Source of the DNA: Escherichia phage vB_EcoS Sa179lw
Strand: one strand, 5' to 3'
Sequence record: NC_054637.1
Length of the DNA stretch: 46,833 nt
Shown piece by piece: positions 2,576 through 34,057 of this stretch. The notes beneath the pieces are model-generated. The model was not told where the DNA came from, made no database searches, and was given only the letters and a program-made list of their open reading frames with translations. The translations under genes and the position numbers were made by a program. How positions within the stretch are numbered: position 1 is the first letter of the stretch; each line of letters begins with the position of its first letter.

Positions 2576-3646
2576 ATGGAAAAGATTATTTTTACCAAAG
2601 ATTTGGTGGCCAACTCCGCAGTGGTGGCTGACCAGTGGAAACATCTCACCATCGACCGTAAAGTGTTCTGCAACGCAGAAGCTGAGCTGGCGAAAACTTA
2701 CGGTGTTAACGCCACCGCACTGGTAACGAAAGATTACTGGCGCGACGTGGATAACGTCACCACCCGTGTTTTCCGCAACGAAGCTGGTCAGGACATGATG
2801 GCTGACCTGATGGGTATCGCGGCAAACATCAACATCGGTAAGACTGTGGCAATCAGCCGTATTGCTTCCGATGCTGGTAAGGTAGTCCGCACTCTGTCTG
2901 GTCAGGAGCCGGAAGATTTGGATAAAACCCGCTACGATTACACTGGCGATGTGATTCCAATCTTCAAGACTGGCTACAGCCGCGAATGGCGTGAGCTGCT
3001 GGGTATGCAGTCTGAAGGCTTCGACCCGCTGCTGGACGATCAGGCCAACGTTACCTTTAACCTGCGTTCCGACATGGCGCAATATCTGCTGACTGGCGAC
3101 CAGACTCTGAACGTGAATGGCGTTTACACTGGCTACGGCATCACCAACCACCCGAACACTGTTCAGGTTAACCTGAACGTTTCCGGTGGCCTGAATATCG
3201 ACCTGCAAACCGCAACGCCAGACGAAATCGTGAAATTCTTCAATCAGGATTTCCAGGCTATTCTGGATGCGCAGAACGTATTCGAGCAGGTTACCTTGTG
3301 GGTTTCTCCAGCAGTGCGTCGCAGCTTCATGCGCCCGTATTCTGATGCAGCTGGCTTCAAAGGCGGCACGGTTGAGCAGTACATCACTCAGTTCGGTAAT
3401 GGTCGCATTGGCAAGATTGGCACCAACTTCCTGCTGACTGGTAACCATTTCGTTGGCTACGTTCGCAACGACATGTACATCCGTCCGCGTGTTGCTCAGC
3501 CGGTTTCCACCTATGCGGCAGCTCGCGATAACCCGCACGATAACTTCAACTTCCTTGTGTGGTCAGCTTTTGGGCTTCAGGTGCGCAAGGATTTCACTGG
3601 CAAGTCCAAAGTGTTCAACGGATACGGTACGCAAACTCCGCTGTAA
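2576..3646 (+). CDS. Major capsid protein, 356 aa
   Basis: Size, position after scaffold/decoration genes, strong terminator immediately downstream. Confidence 0.7.
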   Translation: MEKIIFTKDLVANSAVVADQWKHLTIDRKVFCNAEAELAKTYGVNATALVTKDYWRDVDNVTTRVFRNEAGQDMMADLMGIAANINIGKTVAISRIASDAGKVVRTLSGQEPEDLDKTRYDYTGDVIPIFKTGYSREWRELLGMQSEGFDPLLDDQANVTFNLRSDMAQYLLTGDQTLNVNGVYTGYGITNHPNTVQVNLNVSGGLNIDLQTATPDEIVKFFNQDFQAILDAQNVFEQVTLWVSPAVRRSFMRPYSDAAGFKGGTVEQYITQFGNGRIGKIGTNFLLTGNHFVGYVRNDMYIRPRVAQPVSTYAAARDNPHDNFNFLVWSAFGLQVRKDFTGKSKVFNGYGTQTPL

Positions 3647-3927: not shown

Positions 3928-4776
3928 ATGGCTGTAAGATACGACATATTCACCACGCGGGAAGATGGTGAGGTGATGCTTGATGAACTGATGTCTGCTG
4001 ACTGGGCGGCGCTACAGGTTAACGTAATGCCGCTTGATTCATCTGGCGAATACACTCCACTTGTCAGCGGCACCGTGTCCGTTAAGGTATCACCATTTGA
4101 ATCAGGTGACTACTGGATTGATGTTAACAATAATAATTATTATGGCATGGCGCTACGCCTGAAGATAATCAAAAACCAGCTGCCAGTAGCGGTTAGTTCA
4201 CTGCGTGTTTCTGTGTGGCGCGCAGGAGTGTCGCCGCAATCGGTAGTTAACGTGTCGCCAGAAGTGAATGTGAGCAATGTCACTTCACAGTCATATTCTG
4301 AGCGAGCTAATAAGCAGGGTAAACTGTTCACTGCATCACGCAGAGTGACGGATGTCGCTGGTAGTTCAAACCTTGACAGCATATTCATCACCGGAACGAA
4401 GCAGGTAATATTCAACCAGCGCATTATTGGCTACACAGGAAAGGGCGTTGTTGCATCAATCTATCGTGGCGCGGTGGCTACTGGCGGAACTGCTGCGGAG
4501 ATTAATAACCCTAACGATATAACTCCGCAGGCAGCCACGGCGCAGCTACTTACTGGCGCTACGGTAACAAGCGTCGGGCAGCTAACGGTCGCGGCAACGT
4601 ACAGCGAGGGTAATGCTTCAAATCAGGGACAGGGGAACTCGCAGGCGCGGCTTGGTGAGCAAATCATCATGGCACCAAACACGACATATTTGCTTCGCAT
4701 AACATCACTGGATACGGCGGCGCAGAATATCAATGCGTATGTTTCGTGGTTTGAGGATGATACTTATCTGGCGTGA
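3928..4776 (+). CDS. Hypothetical protein, 282 aa, possibly virion-associated
   Basis: ATG at 3928; V/S/T/N/G-rich, Cys-free translation; flanked by terminators. Confidence 0.55.
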   Translation: MAVRYDIFTTREDGEVMLDELMSADWAALQVNVMPLDSSGEYTPLVSGTVSVKVSPFESGDYWIDVNNNNYYGMALRLKIIKNQLPVAVSSLRVSVWRAGVSPQSVVNVSPEVNVSNVTSQSYSERANKQGKLFTASRRVTDVAGSSNLDSIFITGTKQVIFNQRIIGYTGKGVVASIYRGAVATGGTAAEINNPNDITPQAATAQLLTGATVTSVGQLTVAATYSEGNASNQGQGNSQARLGEQIIMAPNTTYLLRITSLDTAAQNINAYVSWFEDDTYLA

Positions 4777-6754: not shown

Positions 6755-6946
6755 TCACTCACCACTTTCTTCTAATAAAAGTTCATAGTTTGCAATGTAT
6801 GCATTAGCCAGATGATATATTTGCTCTGCTGCGCAACGCTCTGGCGAGCTAAAGTCATCAATAGAACCAGCATTGCTGAGTGCATCAACACAATTTCGGA
6901 AATCATCCATAGTATTGCGGAACATACAGTAGTACATGTTTGCCAT
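6755..6946 (-). CDS. Hypothetical protein, 63 aa
   Basis: ORF track. Confidence 0.45.
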   Translation of the reverse strand: MANMYYCMFRNTMDDFRNCVDALSNAGSIDDFSSPERCAAEQIYHLANAYIANYELLLEESGE

Positions 6947-15910: not shown

Positions 15911-19711
<3,801 letters not shown>

Positions 19712-22905: not shown

Positions 22906-24767
22906 AATACCCCCCAATACATGCCTTTAACGTTGAAATATTTACTACCCTTATCTCTTCTGAACATAATCACTGATGGCGCGACAGCCTCATCTCTTTT
23001 AGATATTGCATCATCAATTGACATGTTATGTTCACCAAAGCACTTCTCACAAAATTCTTCCCACTCCTTCTTCATCCATTCCTTCTCAGAGTTTGGATTG
23101 TAGAACTTGCTAACAAAAAATGGTTTCTGTTCAATAGCAAATTTTACGTGCACCAAATCTTCACCGCTTGAAACGTAATGCTTCATGATGTTCATCATGG
23201 TTACGCTTGATTGCTTGGTTGCATAAGGAGAAGAATCAAGCCTGTCAGCTTCTTCCTTTAGCTTTTGGTTGGGGTCAATAATTTCAGCTCCGCATGATGT
23301 GCAATTTCTTGCTGCTATATCATTTTCAAACCCACAATCGGGACACTCCTTTACCGACCATTTATAAGTACACCTATGCATTTCCCTTAGTGGTCCATGC
23401 ATAACGTAGTTTTTACACCGCCTACCAAAATGAGCAGGCATAGGCTTGCTCCCAATCTTTTCACCTGACTTATCAAAAATATCAATCATTACTCTGTCAC
23501 CCGCCAAATCCAGCCAGTAACCTTCCTTGTCAACTTCAAGATTTTCAGGATTTGGGCGCACACCAAATTCATTAATAAAGCCACAAAGAGGGCACTTGAC
23601 ATCCATTGGCACGGATGGTTTTTTCCTTGTTGCTTTTATTTCTGGAGTGAATAAGTCCCCAGTCTCAGAAAAGTGGCGCTGAATGTTGCCTGCGTAATCG
23701 CTGACAAGAAAATCTTCCTTGCCTTCATAAAGGCGCGTCCCTCTGCCAATTATTTGCTGGTAGAGCCTTGGTGATTCTGTGGCTCTCATTACTGCTATAT
23801 GATCACAATGAGGAACATCCACCCCTACAGTAAGGATATTCTGGTTAACGATGTATTTAACTTTTTGTGCCTTGAAGTCTGATATTGCCTTATTGCGTTC
23901 CGTTGTCGGCATGTCACCAAAAACATAACTATAAGAACCGGGAGGAAGTGACTCCATTATCTCCATAGCGTGCTTCTTGGTGCTGGCAAAAATCATCGTT
24001 CCGCGCCGATTAACAGAGCGACGGATAATATCTTCAACAATACGTGATGTTTTCCTTCCTTTGCCAACCATCGCCTTTTCAACTGAAGCTGTCGTGTACC
24101 GACCTAACTTATCCTTTTCAAGACAAGACGTATCATACTCGTCAAAAACAGGCTCTGTTACTGGAGGAGTAAGGTATCCGTTTTCGATGAGAAATTTAGC
24201 TTCAAGCTCATAAACGACTTTGTCGTAATATGGGTCTATGGCTGTTTCTTCATCTGTAGGACCGTCGAGGTAATGCTCTTTGTAGATGTATCCAGTTCCA
24301 AGGCGGTAAGGCGTAGCGGTCATTCCAATAACGCGCAGTTTTGGATTGCGACGCTTCATCTCATTAATAATAAATTTAATGGTTGGCGTTATTCCATCAC
24401 ATTCATCAATAATGACAGCACCATACTTATCACCAAACATCTCTATTGAGTTCTTGATTGTAACTGGTGAACCAAACACCACAGGATGACGCAGGTTTTT
24501 GGGACCAGCTTTTGCACTGAACATGCTGGCTGGTTCTCCTGTAAGAAGATATTTAGCGCGATTTTGTGTGACGAGTTCCGCCGTGGGAGCAATGCACAAA
24601 ACTCGCTTTTTGCTGATACCATAAATACGAGATGCAAGCTCTGCTACAACCATAGATTTTCCTGCACCTGTCGGGAGGATGATAACGCATGATGAGATAG
24701 TGCTGCGAATGTGTGCCATAGCCGCGTCAACTGCTTCCTGTTGGTATGGCCTTAGCGTGTATTTCAT
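22902..24767 (-). CDS. Superfamily 2 (DEAD/DEAH-like) helicase with C-terminal Cys-rich zinc-ribbon region, 621 aa
   Basis: Walker A PTGAGKS, motif II DECD, motif III-like TATP; CPLCGF and CPDCGF...CTSCG near the C-terminus. Confidence 0.8.
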   Translation of the reverse strand: MKYTLRPYQQEAVDAAMAHIRSTISSCVIILPTGAGKSMVVAELASRIYGISKKRVLCIAPTAELVTQNRAKYLLTGEPASMFSAKAGPKNLRHPVVFGSPVTIKNSIEMFGDKYGAVIIDECDGITPTIKFIINEMKRRNPKLRVIGMTATPYRLGTGYIYKEHYLDGPTDEETAIDPYYDKVVYELEAKFLIENGYLTPPVTEPVFDEYDTSCLEKDKLGRYTTASVEKAMVGKGRKTSRIVEDIIRRSVNRRGTMIFASTKKHAMEIMESLPPGSYSYVFGDMPTTERNKAISDFKAQKVKYIVNQNILTVGVDVPHCDHIAVMRATESPRLYQQIIGRGTRLYEGKEDFLVSDYAGNIQRHFSETGDLFTPEIKATRKKPSVPMDVKCPLCGFINEFGVRPNPENLEVDKEGYWLDLAGDRVMIDIFDKSGEKIGSKPMPAHFGRRCKNYVMHGPLREMHRCTYKWSVKECPDCGFENDIAARNCTSCGAEIIDPNQKLKEEADRLDSSPYATKQSSVTMMNIMKHYVSSGEDLVHVKFAIEQKPFFVSKFYNPNSEKEWMKKEWEEFCEKCFGEHNMSIDDAISKRDEAVAPSVIMFRRDKGSKYFNVKGMYWGVL

Positions 24768-24777
24768 AAATCAAATC

Positions 24778-24966
24778 CTAATATAAATCGCAATGATTTA
24801 GATCTAAAATATCATCATCTATCTCAGTAACCTGAGACTCATTGAATAATGGAATACCATCTGGACTTCTAAAGCTTGATTTTTCACCTTTTATTACTGT
24901 AAAACCAAATTCTCTCCACGCGGAAAAACTCATGAACTTTTCATGTTTTTCTTTATTTTCTTTCAT
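24778..24966 (-). CDS. Hypothetical protein, 62 aa
   Basis: ATG at 24966 preceded by TTCGAGAGGACATT; lies downstream of a terminator. Confidence 0.4.
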   Translation of the reverse strand: MKENKEKHEKFMSFSAWREFGFTVIKGEKSSFRSPDGIPLFNESQVTEIDDDILDLNHCDLY

Positions 24967-26847: not shown

Positions 26848-26981
26848 AGTGTCCTCTCGATTTAACTCAGCATTTCGCTGGTGTGAATTAAAGATACGTC
26901 AATGCGATGGTAAACGCAACACCTTGACGAAAATTTTTTTTGAGTTCATTATTGCTACATACAGATAGTAGAGGTAATCAC

Positions 26982-27224
26982 ATGAAAAGTATTGCAGAAC
27001 AAATAAGGGAAATGGAACAGAAAAAGCTGTCAGAGCTGATTAATTATGTTGGCGGACAGTCTCAACTGGCAAGGTTCCTTGGCGTATCAAAACAGGCGGT
27101 CAATCAATGGGTATCAAGAGGAAGAATTAGTGCTACAGAGGCTATTCATGCTGAAATGCTAACTGGTGGTGCTTTCAGGAAAGAAGATTTAAGGCCAGCC
27201 GTTACAAAGTGGATAGTGAAATGA
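26982..27224 (+). CDS. Cro/YdaS-like HTH DNA-binding protein, about 80 aa
   Basis: HTH segment QSQLARFLGVSKQAVNQWVSRG; encoded opposite to the surrounding operon; own terminator. Confidence 0.6.
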   Translation: MKSIAEQIREMEQKKLSELINYVGGQSQLARFLGVSKQAVNQWVSRGRISATEAIHAEMLTGGAFRKEDLRPAVTKWIVK

Positions 27225-27256: not shown

Positions 27257-27647
27257 TTCCTTTTGAGCTTAAACTATCTTTCTCACGCCTTCCGATATAC
27301 TCTTTGCTTACATCATCATACAAAACACCAAACGCCTTGCAGAAATTAAATAGCGCGTCACCTGCGAATACTTCGCTCGGATGCCAGCTTCCTGATTTCA
27401 TTGCAACATCCCTGTATGATGCTGTTAATATACCGACATTGTTTTTGTGTTTTATCCTGCAAAACAAAACGTCATCATCAATGCAGACTCCCATATTGCA
27501 ACGGAACACGGGAAACTTCCAGTAGTAAACCTCCATCAGGTGTTTTCCTGTCATCAGGGAGATGGCGTTGTTATGTGCATGCTCAGGATTTTCTGATTCA
27601 AAGTAGTCATACAACCCTTTCATCACCAGAAACTTGTAGTTAATCAT
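27252..27647 (-). CDS. Hypothetical protein, 131 aa
   Basis: ORF track; coupled to the primase-polymerase gene. Confidence 0.5.
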   Translation of the reverse strand: MINYKFLVMKGLYDYFESENPEHAHNNAISLMTGKHLMEVYYWKFPVFRCNMGVCIDDDVLFCRIKHKNNVGILTASYRDVAMKSGSWHPSEVFAGDALFNFCKAFGVLYDDVSKEYIGRREKDSLSSKGI

Positions 27648-29977
27648 ATTTCAACCTCATCATTTGTTAATTTGTAAATAACTACAGCATTGCTTGTTCT
27701 TTTTGCGCTTTCATCTTTCTCAATAACACCATCTTCAATAAGTTTCTCTATACATCTTTTCACATCTTCGCGTTTATATCCGCCTTCTTTTGCCACGCCT
27801 CTAACTATTGCAGTTTTAGTCATTCCACGCTTCACATATTCTTTAACCATTGAGAAAATACCTTCAATTCTTTCTTCCATGGCTTTAGACTTCGCTCCGG
27901 CTATACTATCAGCACGCATCATCAGGTCGCTTGTTGATTTGATTGTTAATGCTACTGCATATCGCAAGTGCTCCATGGTTATAACTCCGGTATCGCACGC
28001 AAGAATGCCAGCAATCTTTGCAACTTTAACAGCACATCTGTTTATCAAAGGGTGATAACCAGTCCCGTTCTCTACATGCTTTCTTGCAATAGTCTTAATC
28101 CATGAGAAAAACTCTTTAGCAAGCCGTGACACCTCTGGTGTGGCCTTTATAATTCGTCTTTCATTTTGACTGATGATTGAATCGGTCCAGTTTTTGTATC
28201 CGGCAGCTCCTCCATTTATTATTGTTTTTATGGTCATTTGCATATCCATCGGGAGATCGCAGTAATTAACATTTTCGTTTTCGTCAGCAATCTCCTGCAA
28301 CTCCTGCATAATCATTGCACGACCCATAAGCCCTGACTTGATGTTCTCCTCAGTAATTAGGCGCTTGAACTGGTCATCAGTAGAAACACCGAAAATTGAG
28401 AAAAATGGATTTCTTATCGCTCCGTCAATTCGGTTTATGACTTCATCAAACTGACGCTTAATGTCAGCAGGGTCAGCTTGAATTTCGTTTTCTTCAATAG
28501 CCATCAACAACATAGCTTTTCTCTTTTCGAAAGCCTTAATGAACTCCTCTGTCACTCGTTGATCGCAATAAAGAACTTCAGATGTGTAAGCCTCCATGAT
28601 GGCACCAGCGGTTGCCATGTTGTACTCGCTTACCTTCTGACCAACAACACTCCCAAGTTTTATACCAATCTCATCCATGATGAGATTAAACATCTGGTTA
28701 GCACAAAGACCTTCATATATTGCACGCTCAGAGCGTATCTTGCCTGCAACTGTCTTACTCAGCCCTGAACAATCAATTATCTTTTGTAACGCTGCAAGAA
28801 CATCACCCTTACCAGAGCCCGAACCAGCGATACCAATGGCAAACAGATTTGGCAAAGCCTTCCTGTTTGTAAGATAAATATCAGATGACGCTCCGCAAAT
28901 CATGGATGCAGCGTGCAACGCAGCGAGTGCCGAAATGTTTTCACGCTTCTCTGCACAGTTCTTATTAATCCATGCTGTAAGACGCCCAACAAATCCTGGT
29001 GGATAACGAACATCAACACTCTTGTACTCTATTGGGCATTCACCAACACCCATTGCCATTTCTCTCTCGAAAGACTCAAGCTTCTCAATTTCCTCTGGCG
29101 TAGCCTCAAAAGTTACTTGCCTTACCCATCCACCCTCTTGTGCGAGATAAACCAGCGTTGCTTCTGTTATCTTTTCGCTAACACCGTCCTTACCGAATGA
29201 GTGCCATTTAGCGTCCATTTCCTCAGCTCTGTACTTGCTGAACTGAGAAGACCAGTTATCCCAAAGATCAAAACCATTGCCATCGGTGGCTTCGTGGATA
29301 GCCATCCCAACATGAATCCACGGGTCATACTCGTCTCCATCTTTGATGTATTTGAGCATATCCTCCATTTCGGCAATGCTGTAATTTTTACTATCAAGCG
29401 TAAAAATCTCATCTTCCGTTCGTTCAGGCCTAAGCAAAAGCTCAATAAGTTCAGATGGCGCTTCCGTTATCTCTGAAGGAGAACCGTGCTCTGCTTCGTA
29501 AAAGTTTCCTGACTTATGGAAAGAACCGCAGCCAATAACGAAACCAGATGATTTAAAGTCAATACCTTTAAATCTCCTGTCGTGAGATCGCAGCTTCACA
29601 TCAGCAGGAAGCTTGTAATAGATATGGCGACCACATCCACCAGTCTTAACCGTAAAACCAGCTTCGTCAGCAAGTTCAACATCTAACGTATCACAAAGCG
29701 CCTCGTATCCATCATTACCGCCATTTCTTGGGTCAATATCAACAACAAGGTACCCATTCACAAGAACGCCGAATGACTGTAACTTGCCATACTTAGCCAT
29801 GCTTTCAATCTGCTCATCATCCCACTGGACACCAAGCTGCCAGTTACTCATAACCGGATGCTTTCCAGCAGCCTTACATTCCGGATTTCCACAGGTACAG
29901 TTGCGATCCTCATCCATCGGATGAATGTCGATAATAGGGAAGCCGCATTTACGGTAATCTTCATAACCAATCATCAT
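27644..29977 (-). CDS. Bifunctional DNA primase-polymerase (PrimPol N-terminal domain plus C-terminal helicase-like region), 777 aa
   Basis: N-terminal primase-polymerase-like motifs (VVDIDPRNGG, KTGGCGRHIYY); large C-terminal domain; first large gene of the leftward operon. Confidence 0.75.
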   Translation of the reverse strand: MMIGYEDYRKCGFPIIDIHPMDEDRNCTCGNPECKAAGKHPVMSNWQLGVQWDDEQIESMAKYGKLQSFGVLVNGYLVVDIDPRNGGNDGYEALCDTLDVELADEAGFTVKTGGCGRHIYYKLPADVKLRSHDRRFKGIDFKSSGFVIGCGSFHKSGNFYEAEHGSPSEITEAPSELIELLLRPERTEDEIFTLDSKNYSIAEMEDMLKYIKDGDEYDPWIHVGMAIHEATDGNGFDLWDNWSSQFSKYRAEEMDAKWHSFGKDGVSEKITEATLVYLAQEGGWVRQVTFEATPEEIEKLESFEREMAMGVGECPIEYKSVDVRYPPGFVGRLTAWINKNCAEKRENISALAALHAASMICGASSDIYLTNRKALPNLFAIGIAGSGSGKGDVLAALQKIIDCSGLSKTVAGKIRSERAIYEGLCANQMFNLIMDEIGIKLGSVVGQKVSEYNMATAGAIMEAYTSEVLYCDQRVTEEFIKAFEKRKAMLLMAIEENEIQADPADIKRQFDEVINRIDGAIRNPFFSIFGVSTDDQFKRLITEENIKSGLMGRAMIMQELQEIADENENVNYCDLPMDMQMTIKTIINGGAAGYKNWTDSIISQNERRIIKATPEVSRLAKEFFSWIKTIARKHVENGTGYHPLINRCAVKVAKIAGILACDTGVITMEHLRYAVALTIKSTSDLMMRADSIAGAKSKAMEERIEGIFSMVKEYVKRGMTKTAIVRGVAKEGGYKREDVKRCIEKLIEDGVIEKDESAKRTSNAVVIYKLTNDEVEI

Positions 29978-30189
29978 TTAATTCTCCGAACAGATACTTC
30001 ACCAAACCCCGCCTTTCTTGTTACAAAAACCCATGAGTTATCTTTCGCAACGCAACACAGACTTGCTCTGAATTTTTCAATACTGCTATTGGCGCGGAAA
30101 TCATCAATAATAAAAAACCGCACATCACCAACAGACATCCCATTAACAAACTCATACGCCTCAGCCATCGCACTACCAAAACGATACAT
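29974..30189 (-). CDS. Hypothetical protein, 71 aa; first gene of the leftward replication operon
   Basis: ORF track; ATGA coupling to the primase-polymerase gene. Confidence 0.45.
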   Translation of the reverse strand: MYRFGSAMAEAYEFVNGMSVGDVRFFIIDDFRANSSIEKFRASLCCVAKDNSWVFVTRKAGFGEVSVRRIK

Positions 30190-30214
30190 AACAACACCCT
30201 CTCCAGTAATCTAA

Positions 30215-30250
30215 ATACAATATACCAACATTCCTATAATTAGGCAACAT
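30215..30250 (-). promoter_or_regulatory. Candidate leftward early promoter: TTGCCT, 17-bp spacer, TATATT (minus strand)
   Basis: Read on the minus strand at 30242-30247 and 30219-30224. Confidence 0.5.
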
Positions 30251-30356
30251 ACTCAATACACACAAAACAAATGAACAGCGTTGACAAGAAAAAACAAAAG
30301 GTGTATCAATACAGGTATGTTGTGTAAGTGGTTGTTTTGAAAAGAAAAAGAATCCG

Positions 30357-30591
30357 ATTTGCCAGCTATTTGCCAGCTATTTTCCAATGATAAGTTACTG
30401 ATTTTTAACTATTTACCCTAATTTCCTATTTGACACGGCTCTAAACGATATTTGATGTCCGGGAATAAAATTTATAGACCACCCGTGGCAAATAGGGCAA
30501 ATAGAAAATAGAAAAAAACAAAAGCAAAAACAGCAACTTAAAAACAAAAAAGTTTGGCAAATAGAAAGAAAATAGAAAGAAAATAGAAAAC
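30357..30591. repeat. Iteron cluster: tandem TTGCCAGCTAT x2, GGCAAATAG x3, AAAATAGAAAG x3, with A-rich tract; candidate replication origin or operator array
   Basis: Direct reading; non-coding; flanked by divergent promoters and an AT-rich stretch at 30640-30780. Confidence 0.7.
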
Positions 30592-30789
30592 AGGAAACAA
30601 ACCACAAGTAACCAGCTTAACTGCTGGTTTTCGTGTTTCTGTGAACTAAGTTATTAATATCTATAATAAATATAAAGAAGATCTTAATATACTTTATAGA
30701 TGTAATAAACAAAGGTTACTATTAATAATATATGTAACTATATGCTTAAGCTAGCGTTCACTAACATCTATTAATATTTTTCTCCATGT

Positions 30790-30825
30790 GCATTGACGTA
30801 GAATCATTGTTGATGTAGATTAAAA
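30790..30825 (+). promoter_or_regulatory. Rightward early promoter: TTGACG, 17-bp spacer, TAGATT
   Basis: -35 at 30793-30798, -10 at 30816-30821; carries inverted copies of the ATCTAC(A/G)TC motif. Confidence 0.6.
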
Positions 30826-30851
30826 TCATCGGAACAAATGAGGAATCAAAG

Positions 30852-30998
30852 ATGGAAATCAAAGACCGTGAAGAATTTGAAGATGCACAGGCTATGGCGC
30901 GAATTGCTATTGATCGCACAAACAACAGCATTCCAGCAGAAGCATTCTGGAACGCAGCAATGCAGGCTTTAATCTCAGCGTATGGGCTTAGCAAATGA
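30852..30998 (+). CDS. Hypothetical early protein, 48 aa
   Basis: Manual translation MEIKDREEFEDAQAMARIAIDRTNN...; first ORF after the promoter. Confidence 0.45.
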   Translation: MEIKDREEFEDAQAMARIAIDRTNNSIPAEAFWNAAMQALISAYGLSK

Positions 30999-33595: not shown

Positions 33596-34057
33596 ATGTC
33601 AGATAAACCAATCGGGCGACCGACAGAATACAAACCTGATTACGATGAGCAGGCTTACAACTATTGCCTGCTTGGCGCTACCGATAAGCAGCTTGCAACT
33701 TTCTTTGATGTGAGCGAGCAGACAATAAACGCGTGGAAGCACAAGCACCCTTCGTTTCTTGAGTCCTTAAGGCGCGGAAAGGAAATTGCAGATGCGCGAG
33801 TTGCTCAGGCTTTGTTCAGTAGGGCTACCGGTTATGAGCACCCAGAAGACGATATCAAGGCGGTTAATGGTGAAATAGTAATCACACCAACAATAAAAAG
33901 ATACCCGCCAGACCCTACATCAATGATTTTCTGGCTAAAAAACAGACAGCCAAAATTGTGGCGAGATAAACCTGAGTCGGAAGGTTCTGATGGTGACGGC
34001 GCAATCCATAAAGTGCAGATTGAGGTGATTAGTGCAGATAAGAGTAACGGCAACTGA
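33596..34057 (+). CDS. terS: Terminase small subunit, 153 aa
   Basis: Immediately upstream of and overlapping the large terminase; N-terminal HTH-like segment. Confidence 0.65.
   Translation: MSDKPIGRPTEYKPDYDEQAYNYCLLGATDKQLATFFDVSEQTINAWKHKHPSFLESLRRGKEIADARVAQALFSRATGYEHPEDDIKAVNGEIVITPTIKRYPPDPTSMIFWLKNRQPKLWRDKPESEGSDGDGAIHKVQIEVISADKSNGN

What the first reader, a model, noticed from the sequence alone, without database searches (positions are those of the whole stretch)
30190..30850. Central control region with iterons, A-tracts and divergent promoters: candidate origin of replication
A 660-bp non-coding region separates the leftward replication operon from the rightward early genes. 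It holds three iteron clusters (TTGCCAGCTAT x2 at 30358-30381; GGCAAATAG x2 at 30487-30504; GGCAAATAGAAAG followed by AAAATAGAAAG x2 at 30556-30591), with the first cluster containing the reverse complement of GGCAAATAG. These are followed by A-rich tracts and a very AT-rich stretch (30640-30780) that could act as a DNA-unwinding element. Divergent promoters flank it. It lies next to the primase-polymerase operon.
Basis: seen in the sequence. Interest (0 to 1): 0.5.

Follow-up and report, generated by a model that had tools for sequence, protein, structure and literature searches.

The report
Phage replication origin with swappable iterons
The non-coding stretch next to this phage's primase-helicase gene is very probably its replication origin: an array of short repeats whose sequence changes, from one related phage to the next, together with a small DNA-binding domain at the end of that enzyme.

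Summary
Window 30190-30851 is a 662-bp non-coding region. It carries about 11 copies of GGCAAATAG or its weaker form AAAATAG: five point left (30355-30434) and six point right (30487-30586), either side of a 52-bp spacer. The outer triplets are spaced at 11 bp. All four exact copies in the 46.8-kb genome lie here.

Ten related phages and contigs with the same gene order keep the same layout but use different repeat words:
- TGGCAAATAG
- TGGCATTTAG
- CGGGAAATAG
- GGGAAGC(G/C)

The repeat class tracks one protein segment only: the last ~75 residues of the adjacent 777-aa primase-polymerase. The predicted structure has an MCM-like ATPase with a C-terminal winged helix. Of nine alignment columns that separate two repeat classes, eight fall in the recognition helix, the following strand or the wing.

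The AT-rich block at 30643-30742 is the least stable duplex in the genome. A conserved promoter (30281-30309) and a terminator hairpin (30610-30641) bracket the array. The right arm is the most purine-rich stretch of the genome.

Best reading (confidence 0.65): an iteron origin recognised by a self-loading primase-helicase, as in staphylococcal pathogenicity islands (SaPIs). This rests on comparative inference; neither binding nor initiation was tested. It is a new variant of a known kind.

The parts
27644..29977 (-). 777-aa primase-polymerase / helicase-like ATPase / winged-helix protein: the proposed initiator
   Evidence: Pfam finds Prim-Pol, PriCT_2 and DUF3987. PHROG 3022 'DNA primase'. 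AlphaFold2 model with mean pLDDT 84.8. Foldseek best hits are MCM2-7 subunits (E 2.5e-4), then Orc1/Cdc6 bound to origin DNA, 2qby_A (1.6e-3), and archaeal MCM, 6mii_E (2.3e-3).
27644..27880 (-). Segment encoding residues 700-777, the C-terminal winged helix: H1 700-716, H2 721-732, H3 736-748, strand 752-754, wing loop 755-766, strand 767-770
   Evidence: Secondary structure of the model. A solved winged-helix domain (2dk5) aligns over 77 columns, TM-score 0.56. This is the only part of the gene that diverges between phages with different iteron classes. Eight of the nine class-separating columns are residues 737-764.
29974..30189 (-). orf71, the first gene of the leftward operon; function unknown
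   Evidence: No Pfam family. PHROG 28700, unknown function. Only about 8 homologues found. AlphaFold2 pLDDT 93 with an alpha-beta-alpha-beta-beta topology, and no significant fold match. Its relationships do not follow iteron class: types A and C are 85% identical.
30219..30247 (-). P_L, sigma-70-like promoter of the leftward replication operon (TTGCCT, 17-nt spacer, TATATT, with an extended -10 TG)
   Evidence: The equivalent hexamers are readable in the type C relatives in the printed sequences.
30281..30309 (+). P_R1, rightward sigma-70-like promoter (TTGACA, 17-nt spacer, TATCAA) at the left edge of the iteron array
   Evidence: Read from the sequence. A 9-11/12 match with a TTGAC-type -35 hexamer (TTGAC followed by A, G or C) is present 284-329 nt upstream of the hairpin in 13 of 14 loci, at exactly -329 in types A, B and D, whose arrays cannot be aligned.
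30355..30434 (-). Left iteron arm: five copies pointing left (30355-63 GGCAAATCG, 30366-74 GGCAAATAG, 30377-85 GGAAAATAG, 30409-17 GGTAAATAG, 30426-34 GTCAAATAG). The first three are 11 bp apart.
30435..30486 (.). Central 52-bp spacer between the innermost opposed iterons (GC 41%). It is conserved between types A and B. By eye it looks AT-rich, often flanked by a C-run and a G-run, in other types.
   Evidence: Inverted repeat I5; GC; relatives (no composition was computed for the relatives).
30487..30511 (+). Right inner iterons: GGCAAATAG at 30487-95 and 30496-504, and degenerate AGAAAATAG at 30503-11
30556..30586 (+). Right outer iterons with 11-bp phasing: GGCAAATAG at 30556-64, AGAAAATAG at 30567-75 and 30578-86
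30487..30611 (+). Right arm as a whole: the most purine-rich 125 nt of the genome on the plus strand (79% purine, 62% A, 10% T)
   Evidence: Relatives of all iteron classes share the bias (58-78% purine).
30610..30641 (+). Hairpin AACCAGC-N6-GCTGGTT followed by a T-rich tail: an intrinsic-terminator-like element at the right edge of the array
   Evidence: unique in the genome. Arms are invariant in types A-E. More distant relatives have different stems that still pair: AACCCGC/GCGGGTT and AACCCGG/CCGGGTT, with predicted folding energies of -10.7 to -13.7 kcal/mol; L031 keeps only a short stem.
30642..30790 (.). Conserved AT-rich block, the candidate DNA-unwinding element
   Evidence: Least stable duplex in the whole window: 30643-30742, z = 5.65. 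Pairwise identity across iteron types is 91-92% for 30642-30750, the same as the neighbouring coding sequence, against 76% for the next 40 nt (30751-30792). It includes a long invariant run.
30793..30821 (+). P_R2, sigma-70-like promoter of the rightward early operon (TTGACG, 17-nt spacer, TAGATT)
   Evidence: 92% mean pairwise identity across types A-E; the surrounding stretch 30752-30843 also matches Skatevirus genomes at about 78% identity, and TTGACG-17-TAGATT can be read in SeSz-2.
30852..30998 (+). e1, the first rightward early gene (48 aa, PHROG 2180, unknown function). It marks the right boundary.

Best explanation
The region is the phage's origin of replication, of the iteron type.

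Anatomy. Two opposed arms of short repeats (core GGCAAATAG, weaker AAAATAG) flank a 52-bp spacer. A conserved hairpin and then the least stable AT-rich DNA of the genome follow on the right.

Proposed mechanism.
1. The 777-aa protein encoded next door is a fusion of an archaeo-eukaryotic-type primase-polymerase, a PriCT-2 domain, a DUF3987 ATPase with an MCM-like fold, and a C-terminal winged helix. It binds the repeats through the winged helix: the recognition helix reads the 5' half of the repeat and the wing reads the A/T-rich 3' half.
2. It assembles on both arms in opposite orientations, as self-loading helicases do.
3. It melts either the central spacer or the adjacent AT-rich block.
4. 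It primes synthesis with its own primase-polymerase domain, without DnaA.

The host-type promoter P_R1 and the terminator that bracket the array probably drive transcription across it. That could help opening or set timing. Initiator binding may in turn regulate P_R1 and P_L.

Shown here: the anatomy, its conservation, the co-variation of repeat word with winged-helix sequence, the predicted fold, and the stability minimum. Inferred: binding, helicase loading, the site of melting, and any role for transcription.
For: 1. Single-locus array. Eight of the 13 matches with up to 1 mismatch, and all four exact copies, lie in 210 bp. They are strand-polarised, and the outer triplets have 11-bp phasing.

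2. Concerted replacement of the repeat word. The layout is conserved, and the innermost opposed sites lie 61-76 bp apart at similar distances from the hairpin. The word differs by type:
- A: TGGCAAATAG
- B: TGGCATTTAG
- E: CGGGAAATAG
- C and D: GGGAAGC(C/G)
- L028: TGTCAAATAG

3. Co-swapping with the winged helix. YX3973 (type B) and gmqsjt-1 (type E) share 88-100% nucleotide identity per 60-nt window (mostly 93-100%) through the primase gene from the ATG to about nt 2100. Identity drops to 70-86% only in the last ~230 nt, then returns to 98-100% in the next gene. In that stretch, from the Cro gene to the primase ATG, the only other markedly divergent patch is the iteron region with its adjacent small genes. 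L015 against L017 and the window against L013 show the same drop, though the window-L013 pair is only about 80-95% identical elsewhere in the gene, so its contrast is weaker.

4. Unbiased column test. Only 9 of 777 alignment columns separate the AAATAG class (4 loci, core identity 84-99%) from the GGGAAGC class (8 loci, core identity 68-100%). Eight of them are residues 737-764, in helix H3, the following strand and the wing.

5. Type E is a hybrid in both partners. It has the G-class residues at 737, 740, 748, 753 and 754 and the A-class N763. Its repeat joins the G-class half CGGGA to the A-class half AATAG.

6. Other candidates fail. The Cro-like helix-turn-helix is invariant across classes. 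The 131-aa protein, orf71, e1 and, in the two relatives whose fetched DNA reaches that gene, the small terminase do not track class.

7. Fold. The best structural matches are MCM subunits and Orc1/Cdc6 bound to origin DNA, and a winged helix sits at the C-terminus.

8. Modular exchange. Skatevirus SeSz-2 has at the same place a 495-aa homologue of the ATPase part (24% identity) next to a different repeat-rich, AT-rich region. In the Klebsiella-phage group a stand-alone paralogue of the winged helix (29% identity over 75 aa, E 4e-5) is encoded beside a different array.

9. The AT-rich block is the stability minimum of the genome and is conserved at the level of coding sequence.

10. Precedent. 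SaPI Rep helicases recognise penta- or hexanucleotide iterons through a C-terminal winged helix, with iterons pointing in opposite directions on both sides of an AT-rich centre (PMC9371898; PMC7581432).
Against: - There are no experimental data on binding or initiation for any phage of this group. Literature searches found none.
- The co-variation rests on few independent events: at least two replacements of the winged-helix patch.
- Types A and B have identical winged helices, yet their repeats differ at two central positions (AA versus TT). This fits the model only if those positions are read through the minor groove or not at all.
- Within the class II relatives, several repeat words share the same wing sequence.
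- The central spacer of the window is not AT-rich (GC 41%), so the melting site is uncertain.
- The array always lies next to the early-operon promoter as well, so synteny alone cannot separate an origin from a transcriptional control region.
- The GC-skew minimum at 30-31 kb coincides with the switch in gene orientation and is uninformative.
- The conserved promoter-terminator unit and the extreme purine bias of the right arm are not required by a purely protein-driven origin.
Confidence: 0.65

Rival explanations
1. The array is a transcriptional operator region only. The repeats bind a phage protein, either the winged helix of the primase-helicase or another factor, to switch the divergent promoters P_L, P_R1 and P_R2 on or off. 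Replication starts elsewhere or by recombination.
For: Three sigma-70-like promoters lie in or at the edges of the region. In type C one repeat copy sits in the spacer of P_R1. The array is next to the early operon in all gene arrangements examined. The genome encodes recombination functions: a Sak4-like AAA_24 protein, a Gp157 protein and DUF669. The pRN1 plasmid pairs a small repressor with its primase-polymerase gene (PMC4234260 abstract).
Against: Most copies lie 110-340 bp from P_L and more than 200 bp from P_R2, and do not overlap their hexamers. The only recognisable classical regulator nearby, the Cro-like protein, has an invariant helix-turn-helix across repeat classes. There are 11 copies with 11-bp phasing in two opposed arms next to the least stable DNA of the genome, which is more than promoter control needs. 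Autoregulation by an initiator is compatible with, and common at, iteron origins, so this rival is partly a subset of the main model.
Confidence: 0.15
2. The functional product is a non-coding RNA of about 326 nt, transcribed from P_R1 to the hairpin terminator. The opposed repeats are the two sides of RNA helices, and the concerted changes in relatives are compensatory base-pair changes.
For: The promoter is conserved in 13 of 14 loci. The terminator stem shows compensatory changes. Predicted transcript length is 290-326 nt in seven loci of five repeat types whose arrays cannot be aligned with one another. The plus-strand RNA folds better than shuffles (z = -3.0), with the opposed repeats pairing. 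The right arm is the most purine-rich stretch of the genome.
Against: The minus strand folds even better (z = -3.9), as any DNA with inverted repeats would. Tandem direct copies at 7-11-nt spacing and unequal copy numbers on the two sides cannot all pair at once. No Rfam family matches. Predicted folds differ between types. An RNA model does not explain why the repeat word tracks residues 737-764 of a winged-helix domain.
Confidence: 0.08
3. The array is a packaging-recognition (pac or cos) site, or some other cis site bound by terminase or a partition protein.
For: Repeated short motifs occur at some packaging sites. The deposited Shigella phage Sf11 record begins inside the central spacer of its array.
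Against: The small-terminase-like gene lies 2.7 kb away (33596-34057) and is 97-99% identical between phages of different repeat classes, so it does not co-vary. Record start points differ between related phages. No partition genes were seen.
Confidence: 0.03

Closest known systems
Replication origins of Staphylococcus aureus pathogenicity islands (SaPIs) and their Rep or Pri-Rep self-loading helicases
   Same: The initiator is itself the helicase. It recognises short iterons through a C-terminal winged helix. Six to twelve iterons lie next to the gene, in two sets pointing in opposite directions around a central region. Specificity differs between related elements. In SaPI5 the primase and the helicase are fused (PMC9371898; PMC7581432).
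   Different: The paper describes the SaPI Rep ATPases by comparison with the superfamily III and MCM clades, and I did not test which clade they belong to; here the ATPase is DUF3987 with an MCM-like predicted fold, and I did not compare the primases. The SaPI ori lies downstream of rep; here the array lies upstream of the operon in the window's group and downstream in the class II relatives. The window's central spacer is not AT-rich, and a separate conserved AT-rich block lies beyond a terminator hairpin. I found no mention of a bracketing promoter-terminator pair in the passages I read of the two SaPI/SCCmec papers. This is a virulent phage, not a satellite.
Satellite phage P4 alpha protein with ori and crr (from my own knowledge; not checked in the paper library)
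   Same: A single polypeptide combines primase, helicase and a C-terminal winged-helix origin-binding domain. It binds short iterons present in direct and inverted orientation.
   Different: The P4 primase is not of the archaeo-eukaryotic type. P4 needs a second cis site (crr) about 4.5 kb away; no second cluster exists here. There is no sequence similarity to solved structures.
Primase-polymerase fusions of mobile elements: Bacillus cereus prophage BcMCM, pRN1 ORF904, and the PrimQH-type AEP / PriCT / DUF3987 / winged-helix proteins
   Same: Domain order: AEP primase-polymerase, PriCT, P-loop ATPase, C-terminal winged helix. DUF3987 was predicted to be a new helicase family (PMC5862659; PMC3273815; PMC2777425).
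   Different: In the passages I read of the bioinformatic survey, DUF3987 is called experimentally uncharacterized and no cognate origin is mentioned. The pRN1 origin is not an iteron array of this type (PMC4234260 abstract).
Iteron plasmids and phage lambda ori (from my own knowledge of these systems; the review PMC4980987 appears only in a search listing and was not read)
   Same: Repeated initiator-binding sites lie next to an AT-rich unwinding element. In lambda, transcription near the origin activates it.
   Different: Those initiators are not helicases and recruit host DnaB, and many need DnaA. The lambda ori lies inside the initiator gene. Here no DnaA box or IHF consensus is found in the region.

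Membership tests
Iteron-type replication origin | Multiple copies of a short repeat clustered at one locus | tested here: met
   About 11 copies in 30355-30586. Eight of the 13 matches with up to 1 mismatch, and all four exact copies in the genome, lie here.
Iteron-type replication origin | Adjacent AT-rich DNA-unwinding element | tested here: met
   30643-30742 is the least stable duplex of the 46.8-kb window (z = 5.65). That melting actually occurs there was not tested.
Iteron-type replication origin | Cis-linked initiator gene whose DNA-binding specificity matches the repeats | tested here: met
   The test is indirect. The repeat class co-varies with the C-terminal winged helix of the adjacent primase-helicase and with nothing else tested.
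Iteron-type replication origin | Initiator binds the repeats, and replication initiates there | not testable with these tools
   This needs gel-shift or footprinting assays, marker-frequency analysis and plasmid replication assays.
SaPI-like origin with a self-loading helicase | Initiator is a helicase-type ATPase with a C-terminal winged helix | tested here: met
   AlphaFold2 model. Foldseek hits to MCM and Orc1/Cdc6, with winged-helix topology at residues 700-770. Helicase activity was not tested.
SaPI-like origin with a self-loading helicase | At least two iterons on each side of a central region, pointing in opposite directions | tested here: met
   Five minus-oriented copies on the left and six plus-oriented copies on the right of 30435-30486.
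SaPI-like origin with a self-loading helicase | The central region between the two iteron sets is AT-rich | tested here: not met
   The window's spacer has 41% GC and a stability z of only about 0.6-1.5. The spacers of several relatives look AT-rich in the printed sequences, but I computed no composition for them.
SaPI-like origin with a self-loading helicase | Homology of the initiator to SaPI Rep | not tested
   No comparison with a SaPI Rep sequence or structure was made. No solved structure matches the whole protein by sequence at E up to 1. The best structural matches are MCM subunits.
DnaA-dependent (oriC-like) origin | Cluster of DnaA boxes (TTATNCACA) | tested here: not met
   None of the 61 genome-wide matches with up to 1 mismatch lies in 30190-30850.
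Lambdoid ori | Origin located inside the initiator gene and bound by an O-like protein | tested here: not met
   The array is intergenic. No O-like protein is present among the neighbouring genes.
Cro/CI-type operator region | Operator sequence co-varies with the recognition helix of the helix-turn-helix regulator | tested here: not met
   The Cro/YdaS-like protein (26940-27224) has an identical helix-turn-helix (QSQLARFLGVSKQAVNQWVSRG) in types A-E.
Known RNA family (Rfam) | Match to a curated covariance model | tested here: not met
   No match at gathering thresholds anywhere in the window. No tRNA or tmRNA.

The most novel reading that the evidence does not exclude
The origin is a hybrid of protein-driven and transcription-driven initiation. 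The iteron array is a dedicated transcription unit: conserved promoter P_R1, about 326 nt, conserved terminator. Its purine-rich RNA would form a stable R-loop over the right arm. That R-loop would open the duplex for the winged-helix-guided primase-helicase or act as a primer, and the terminator would place the RNA 3' end at the edge of the unwinding element.

In addition, the winged helix and the iterons form an exchangeable specificity cassette. It defines replication 'incompatibility groups' among nearly identical virulent phages, perhaps under selection from co-infecting phages or from satellites that hijack origins.
Probability: 0.15. Interest if true: 0.7.

Novelty: new variant of a known kind. 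Interest (0 to 1): 0.45.

Why it matters
DUF3987-type primase-polymerase fusions are widespread in phages and other mobile elements. The homology search returned 250 relatives with E-values of 1e-10 or below among the candidates it scored. My literature searches found no origin or DNA-binding specificity described for any of them.

This locus gives a concrete model that can be tested directly:
- which DNA is bound;
- which roughly 30 residues read it;
- which half of the repeat is read by the helix and which by the wing.

Natural swap variants (types A, B, C/D and E) already exist as controls. It would add a Gram-negative, virulent-phage counterpart to the SaPI self-loading helicase paradigm. 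It also offers a compact two-part replicon, one gene plus about 450 bp, for phage engineering. The transcribed, purine-rich arm is a separate unexplained feature worth probing.

Tried and rejected
- GC skew as origin evidence. The cumulative minimum is at 30-31 kb, but it coincides with the switch from leftward to rightward genes, and skew follows gene orientation elsewhere in the genome. Uninformative.
- RNA folding z-scores. Both strands beat the shuffles (-3.0 and -3.9), so they do not discriminate.
- orf71 as the repeat reader. There are few homologues, no Pfam family, a confident model with no significant structural match, and relationships that cut across repeat classes. Rejected as the specificity determinant; its role is unknown.
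Its helix-turn-helix is invariant. Rejected.
- The 131-aa protein, e1 and the small terminase. None co-varies with repeat class, though the terminase could be compared in only two relatives.
- A second repeat cluster like the P4 crr. The small group of near-matches at 17336-17393 lies inside a tail gene and looks like chance.
- Sequence search of the C-terminal domain against solved structures. Nothing significant.
- Scans of viral and metagenome collections with the invariant 30-mer from the AT-rich block. They added only one new locus of a known type.
- A protein search of GenBank phages with the C-terminal domain. It found only 18 records, so the available diversity is exhausted.
- An alignment-based pair count for the hairpin. 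MAFFT mis-registered the shorter stems, so each hairpin was folded separately instead.
- A hidden coding gene in the array. No conserved ORF on either strand.
Full report
CONTEXT. The window is a complete siphophage genome of about 46.8 kb. It is related, at about 84-91% identity over part of its length, to Klebsiella phage YX3973, Salmonella phage gmqsjt-1, Escherichia phages ECO111 5-P and ECO95 1-6-1, and Shigella phage Sf11. It is more distantly related to Skatevirus. The finding lies between a leftward replication and recombination operon and a rightward early operon.
- Leftward operon: orf71 at 29974-30189; a 777-aa primase-polymerase at 27644-29977; a 131-aa ORF; a Cro/YdaS-like gene on the opposite strand; then Sak4-like, Gp157, DUF669 and helicase genes.
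- Rightward operon: starts with a 48-aa ORF at 30852.

The 662-bp interval has no conserved ORF on either strand. They are parts of one larger pattern.
- Five copies of the 9-mer point left: 30355, 30366, 30377, 30409 and 30426.
- Six point right: 30487, 30496, 30503, 30556, 30567 and 30578.
- They flank a 52-bp spacer.
- The outer three copies on each side are exactly 11 bp apart.

Genome-wide, GGCAAATAG with up to one mismatch is no more frequent than chance: 13 matches against 12.1 expected. But eight of the 13, and all four exact copies, fall within 210 bp and are sorted by strand. The weaker AAATAGAAAG form is enriched genome-wide: 11 against 3.4 expected, with 0 of 100 shuffles reaching 11. 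The AT-rich stretch is the global minimum of duplex stability.

- A strong rightward sigma-70-like promoter, TTGACA-17-TATCAA at 30281-30309, sits at the left edge of the array.
- A hairpin with a T-rich tail at 30610-30641 sits at its right edge.
- Both are conserved in relatives. The promoter is found in 13 of 14 loci, at -329 relative to the hairpin in three repeat types whose arrays cannot be aligned.
- The hairpin has different stem sequences that still pair in the more distant relatives.
- The array therefore looks like a transcription unit of about 290-326 nt.
- Its right arm is the most purine-rich 125 nt of the genome, a bias shared by relatives.

COMPARATIVE EVIDENCE. I fetched homologous loci from IMG/VR, GenBank phages, one metagenome scan and the contigs that encode homologous proteins. 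All relatives with the window's gene order keep the same layout: P_L, P_R1, array, hairpin, AT-rich block, P_R2, e1. Across types A-E the AT-rich block is 91-92% identical, the same as the e1 coding sequence. The array cannot be aligned between types, because every copy of the repeat has changed to a different word:
- window and L015: TGGCAAATAG
- YX3973: TGGCATTTAG, with ATTTAAAAAG as the phased outer copies
- gmqsjt-1 and ECO111: CGGGAAATAG
- Sf11, ECO95 and six metagenomic contigs: GGGAAGC(C/G)
- L028: TGTCAAATAG or GGTAAATAG

The words form a graded series. The innermost opposed sites stay 61-76 bp apart, at similar distances from the hairpin. Concerted change of all copies is what is expected of binding sites for a factor whose specificity has changed.

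WHICH FACTOR. I compared every neighbouring protein with the repeat class.
- The Cro-like protein has an identical helix-turn-helix in all types.
- The 131-aa protein, e1 and, where the fetched DNA reaches it (two relatives), the small terminase do not follow class.
- orf71 homologues of types A and C are 85% identical although their repeats differ completely, and L028, which is in the AAATAG class, has a more distant orf71.
- The primase-polymerase does follow class, but only in its last ~75 residues.

YX3973 (type B) and gmqsjt-1 (type E) share 88-100% nucleotide identity per 60-nt window (mostly 93-100%) from the start codon to about nt 2100. Identity falls to 70-86% in the last ~230 nt and returns to 98-100% in the next gene. 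In that stretch the only other markedly divergent patch between them is the iteron region with its adjacent small genes, more than 2 kb away. The same isolated patch separates L015 from L017; the window and L013 show the same drop against a more divergent background.

An unbiased scan of the 14-sequence alignment finds nine columns out of 777 whose residues separate the AAATAG class from the GGGAAGC class. Eight of them are residues 737, 740, 748, 751, 753, 754, 763 and 764. The classes cut across overall similarity: three loci of the GGGAAGC class (L029, L030, L031) have cores only 68-73% identical to the other five loci of their class. Those five are 93-96% identical to three of the four AAATAG-class cores (the window, L015 and L001) and about 83% to the fourth, L028.

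STRUCTURE. An AlphaFold2 model built on 40 homologues (mean pLDDT 84.8) shows the N-terminal primase-polymerase, a helical PriCT-2 region and an ATPase domain. The C-terminal unit has three helices plus a beta-hairpin: H1 700-716, H2 721-732, H3 736-748, strands 752-754 and 767-770. Foldseek against the PDB gives MCM2-7 subunits first (E 2.5e-4), then the Orc1/Cdc6 heterodimer bound to origin DNA (2qby_A, 1.6e-3) and archaeal MCM. A solved winged-helix domain covers the C-terminus. The class-specific residues therefore lie at the start of the recognition helix, on the following strand, and at the wing tip, which are the usual DNA-contact surfaces of a winged helix.

Type E is informative. It has the GGGAAGC-class residues at 737, 740, 748, 753 and 754 and the AAATAG-class asparagine at 763. 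Its repeat joins CGGGA to AATAG. Types A and B have identical winged helices, and their repeats differ only by AA versus TT in the centre. Minor-groove or shape readout would not distinguish these. That last point is my inference.

MODULE BEHAVIOUR IN MORE DISTANT PHAGES.
- In Skatevirus SeSz-2 the gene left of the same early promoter is a 495-aa homologue of the ATPase part only. A separate zinc-ribbon primase is present, and the intergenic region carries other repeats (GGATAAA-like) and its own AT-rich stretch.
- In the Klebsiella-phage, Yersinia P400 and related contigs the primase operon is inverted relative to the early genes. A large repeat-rich non-coding region (CTAAAGAC/TC, TTAGAGACG, TTAGAAGCG) still lies between the two.
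- In the Klebsiella-phage group a 190-aa protein encoded beside the array is a paralogue of the primase's winged helix.

MECHANISM AND RIVALS. The closest worked-out system is the SaPI origin. There, Rep or Pri-Rep helicases bind short iterons through a C-terminal winged helix. The iterons point in opposite directions on both sides of an AT-rich centre. The helicases self-load without ATP or host initiators (PMC9371898; PMC7581432). The window matches this logic, with four differences: the ATPase family, a central spacer that is not AT-rich, a separate conserved unwinding block beyond a terminator, and the bracketing promoter. No DnaA box or IHF consensus occurs in the region, which fits a self-contained initiator.

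I rate the iteron-origin model at 0.65. The rivals are:
- a purely transcriptional operator array (0.15), which overlaps with the autoregulation expected at such origins;
- a structured RNA (0.08), disfavoured by the phased tandem copies, by the equally good folding of the other strand and by the protein co-variation;
- a packaging site (0.03), since the small terminase, comparable in two relatives, does not co-vary.

NOVELTY. The domain architecture has been described bioinformatically, with DUF3987 predicted to be a helicase (PMC5862659). I found no report of an origin for this family or for these phages. The kind of system is known; this is a variant with a new initiator family, a transcribed array and natural specificity swaps. 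All functional statements are inferences from sequence comparison and a predicted structure.

Noticed in passing
window 30487-30611: This is the most purine-rich 125-nt stretch of the genome on the plus strand (79% purine, 62% A, 10% T; genome mean 51%). Relatives of every repeat class share the bias. It lies inside the putative P_R1-to-terminator transcript, so an R-loop is conceivable. Iteron binding alone does not explain it.
   Followed up: partly
L017 about 4340-4440; revcomp printouts of L029 at about 450-500 and of L030 at about 440-500; L013 about 6835-6850: In several relatives the central spacer between the opposed iterons carries a run of 8-10 C and a run of 8-10 G about 35-45 nt apart, either side of AT-rich DNA (a potential 8-bp G:C-clamped hairpin). 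The window has no such runs.
   Followed up: no
L016 (Shigella phage Sf11, MF158038), record position 1: The deposited linear record begins inside the central spacer of the Sf11 iteron array, in an A-run. This could be an assembly break at a homopolymer or a real end. Start points of related records differ.
   Followed up: no
L005, oriented as in /scratch/w/all.fa, 3010-3582 (+): In the Klebsiella-phage group a 190-aa protein encoded right beside the repeat array is a stand-alone paralogue of the primase's C-terminal winged helix (29% identity over 75 aa, E 4e-5). It has no PHROG family; Pfam was not searched. It could be a separate origin-binding or regulatory protein.
   Followed up: partly
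L020 (Salmonella phage SeSz-2) 2331-4084 and 4085-4600: Skatevirus has, at the same position, a different replication module: an 88-aa ORF, a 495-aa homologue of the DUF3987 ATPase without a primase-polymerase domain, and a separate zinc-ribbon primase. Beside it lies a different repeat-rich, AT-rich region (CTCAAAAATCTAT x2, GGATAAA-like). The whole initiator-plus-array unit appears to be exchanged.
   Followed up: partly
L001 3154-3815, L003 6328-6989, L017 3462-4109: Types B, D and E carry an extra 134-140-aa gene between the orf71-like gene and the primase. By eye, its C-terminal half resembles orf71, so this small unknown domain seems to be duplicated. No family was found for the 138-aa and 82-aa proteins of L001, the only ones searched.
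   Followed up: partly
window 26940-27224 (+): A Cro/YdaS-like helix-turn-helix gene lies on the opposite strand inside the leftward operon. Its helix-turn-helix is identical in types A-E, so it probably binds something conserved. Its target was not identified.
   Followed up: partly
window 24760-24909 and 27587-27778: These are among the next least stable duplex stretches of the genome after the origin region (z about 3.5 and 2.9-3.1). They lie at gene junctions in the leftward operon (helicase start, primase end).
   Followed up: no
window 17336-17393 (-): A small group of near-matches to the repeat (AAATAGAAAT, AAAAAGAAAG, GGCAAAAAG) lies inside a tail gene (17225-19711). I judged it to be chance.
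   Followed up: yes
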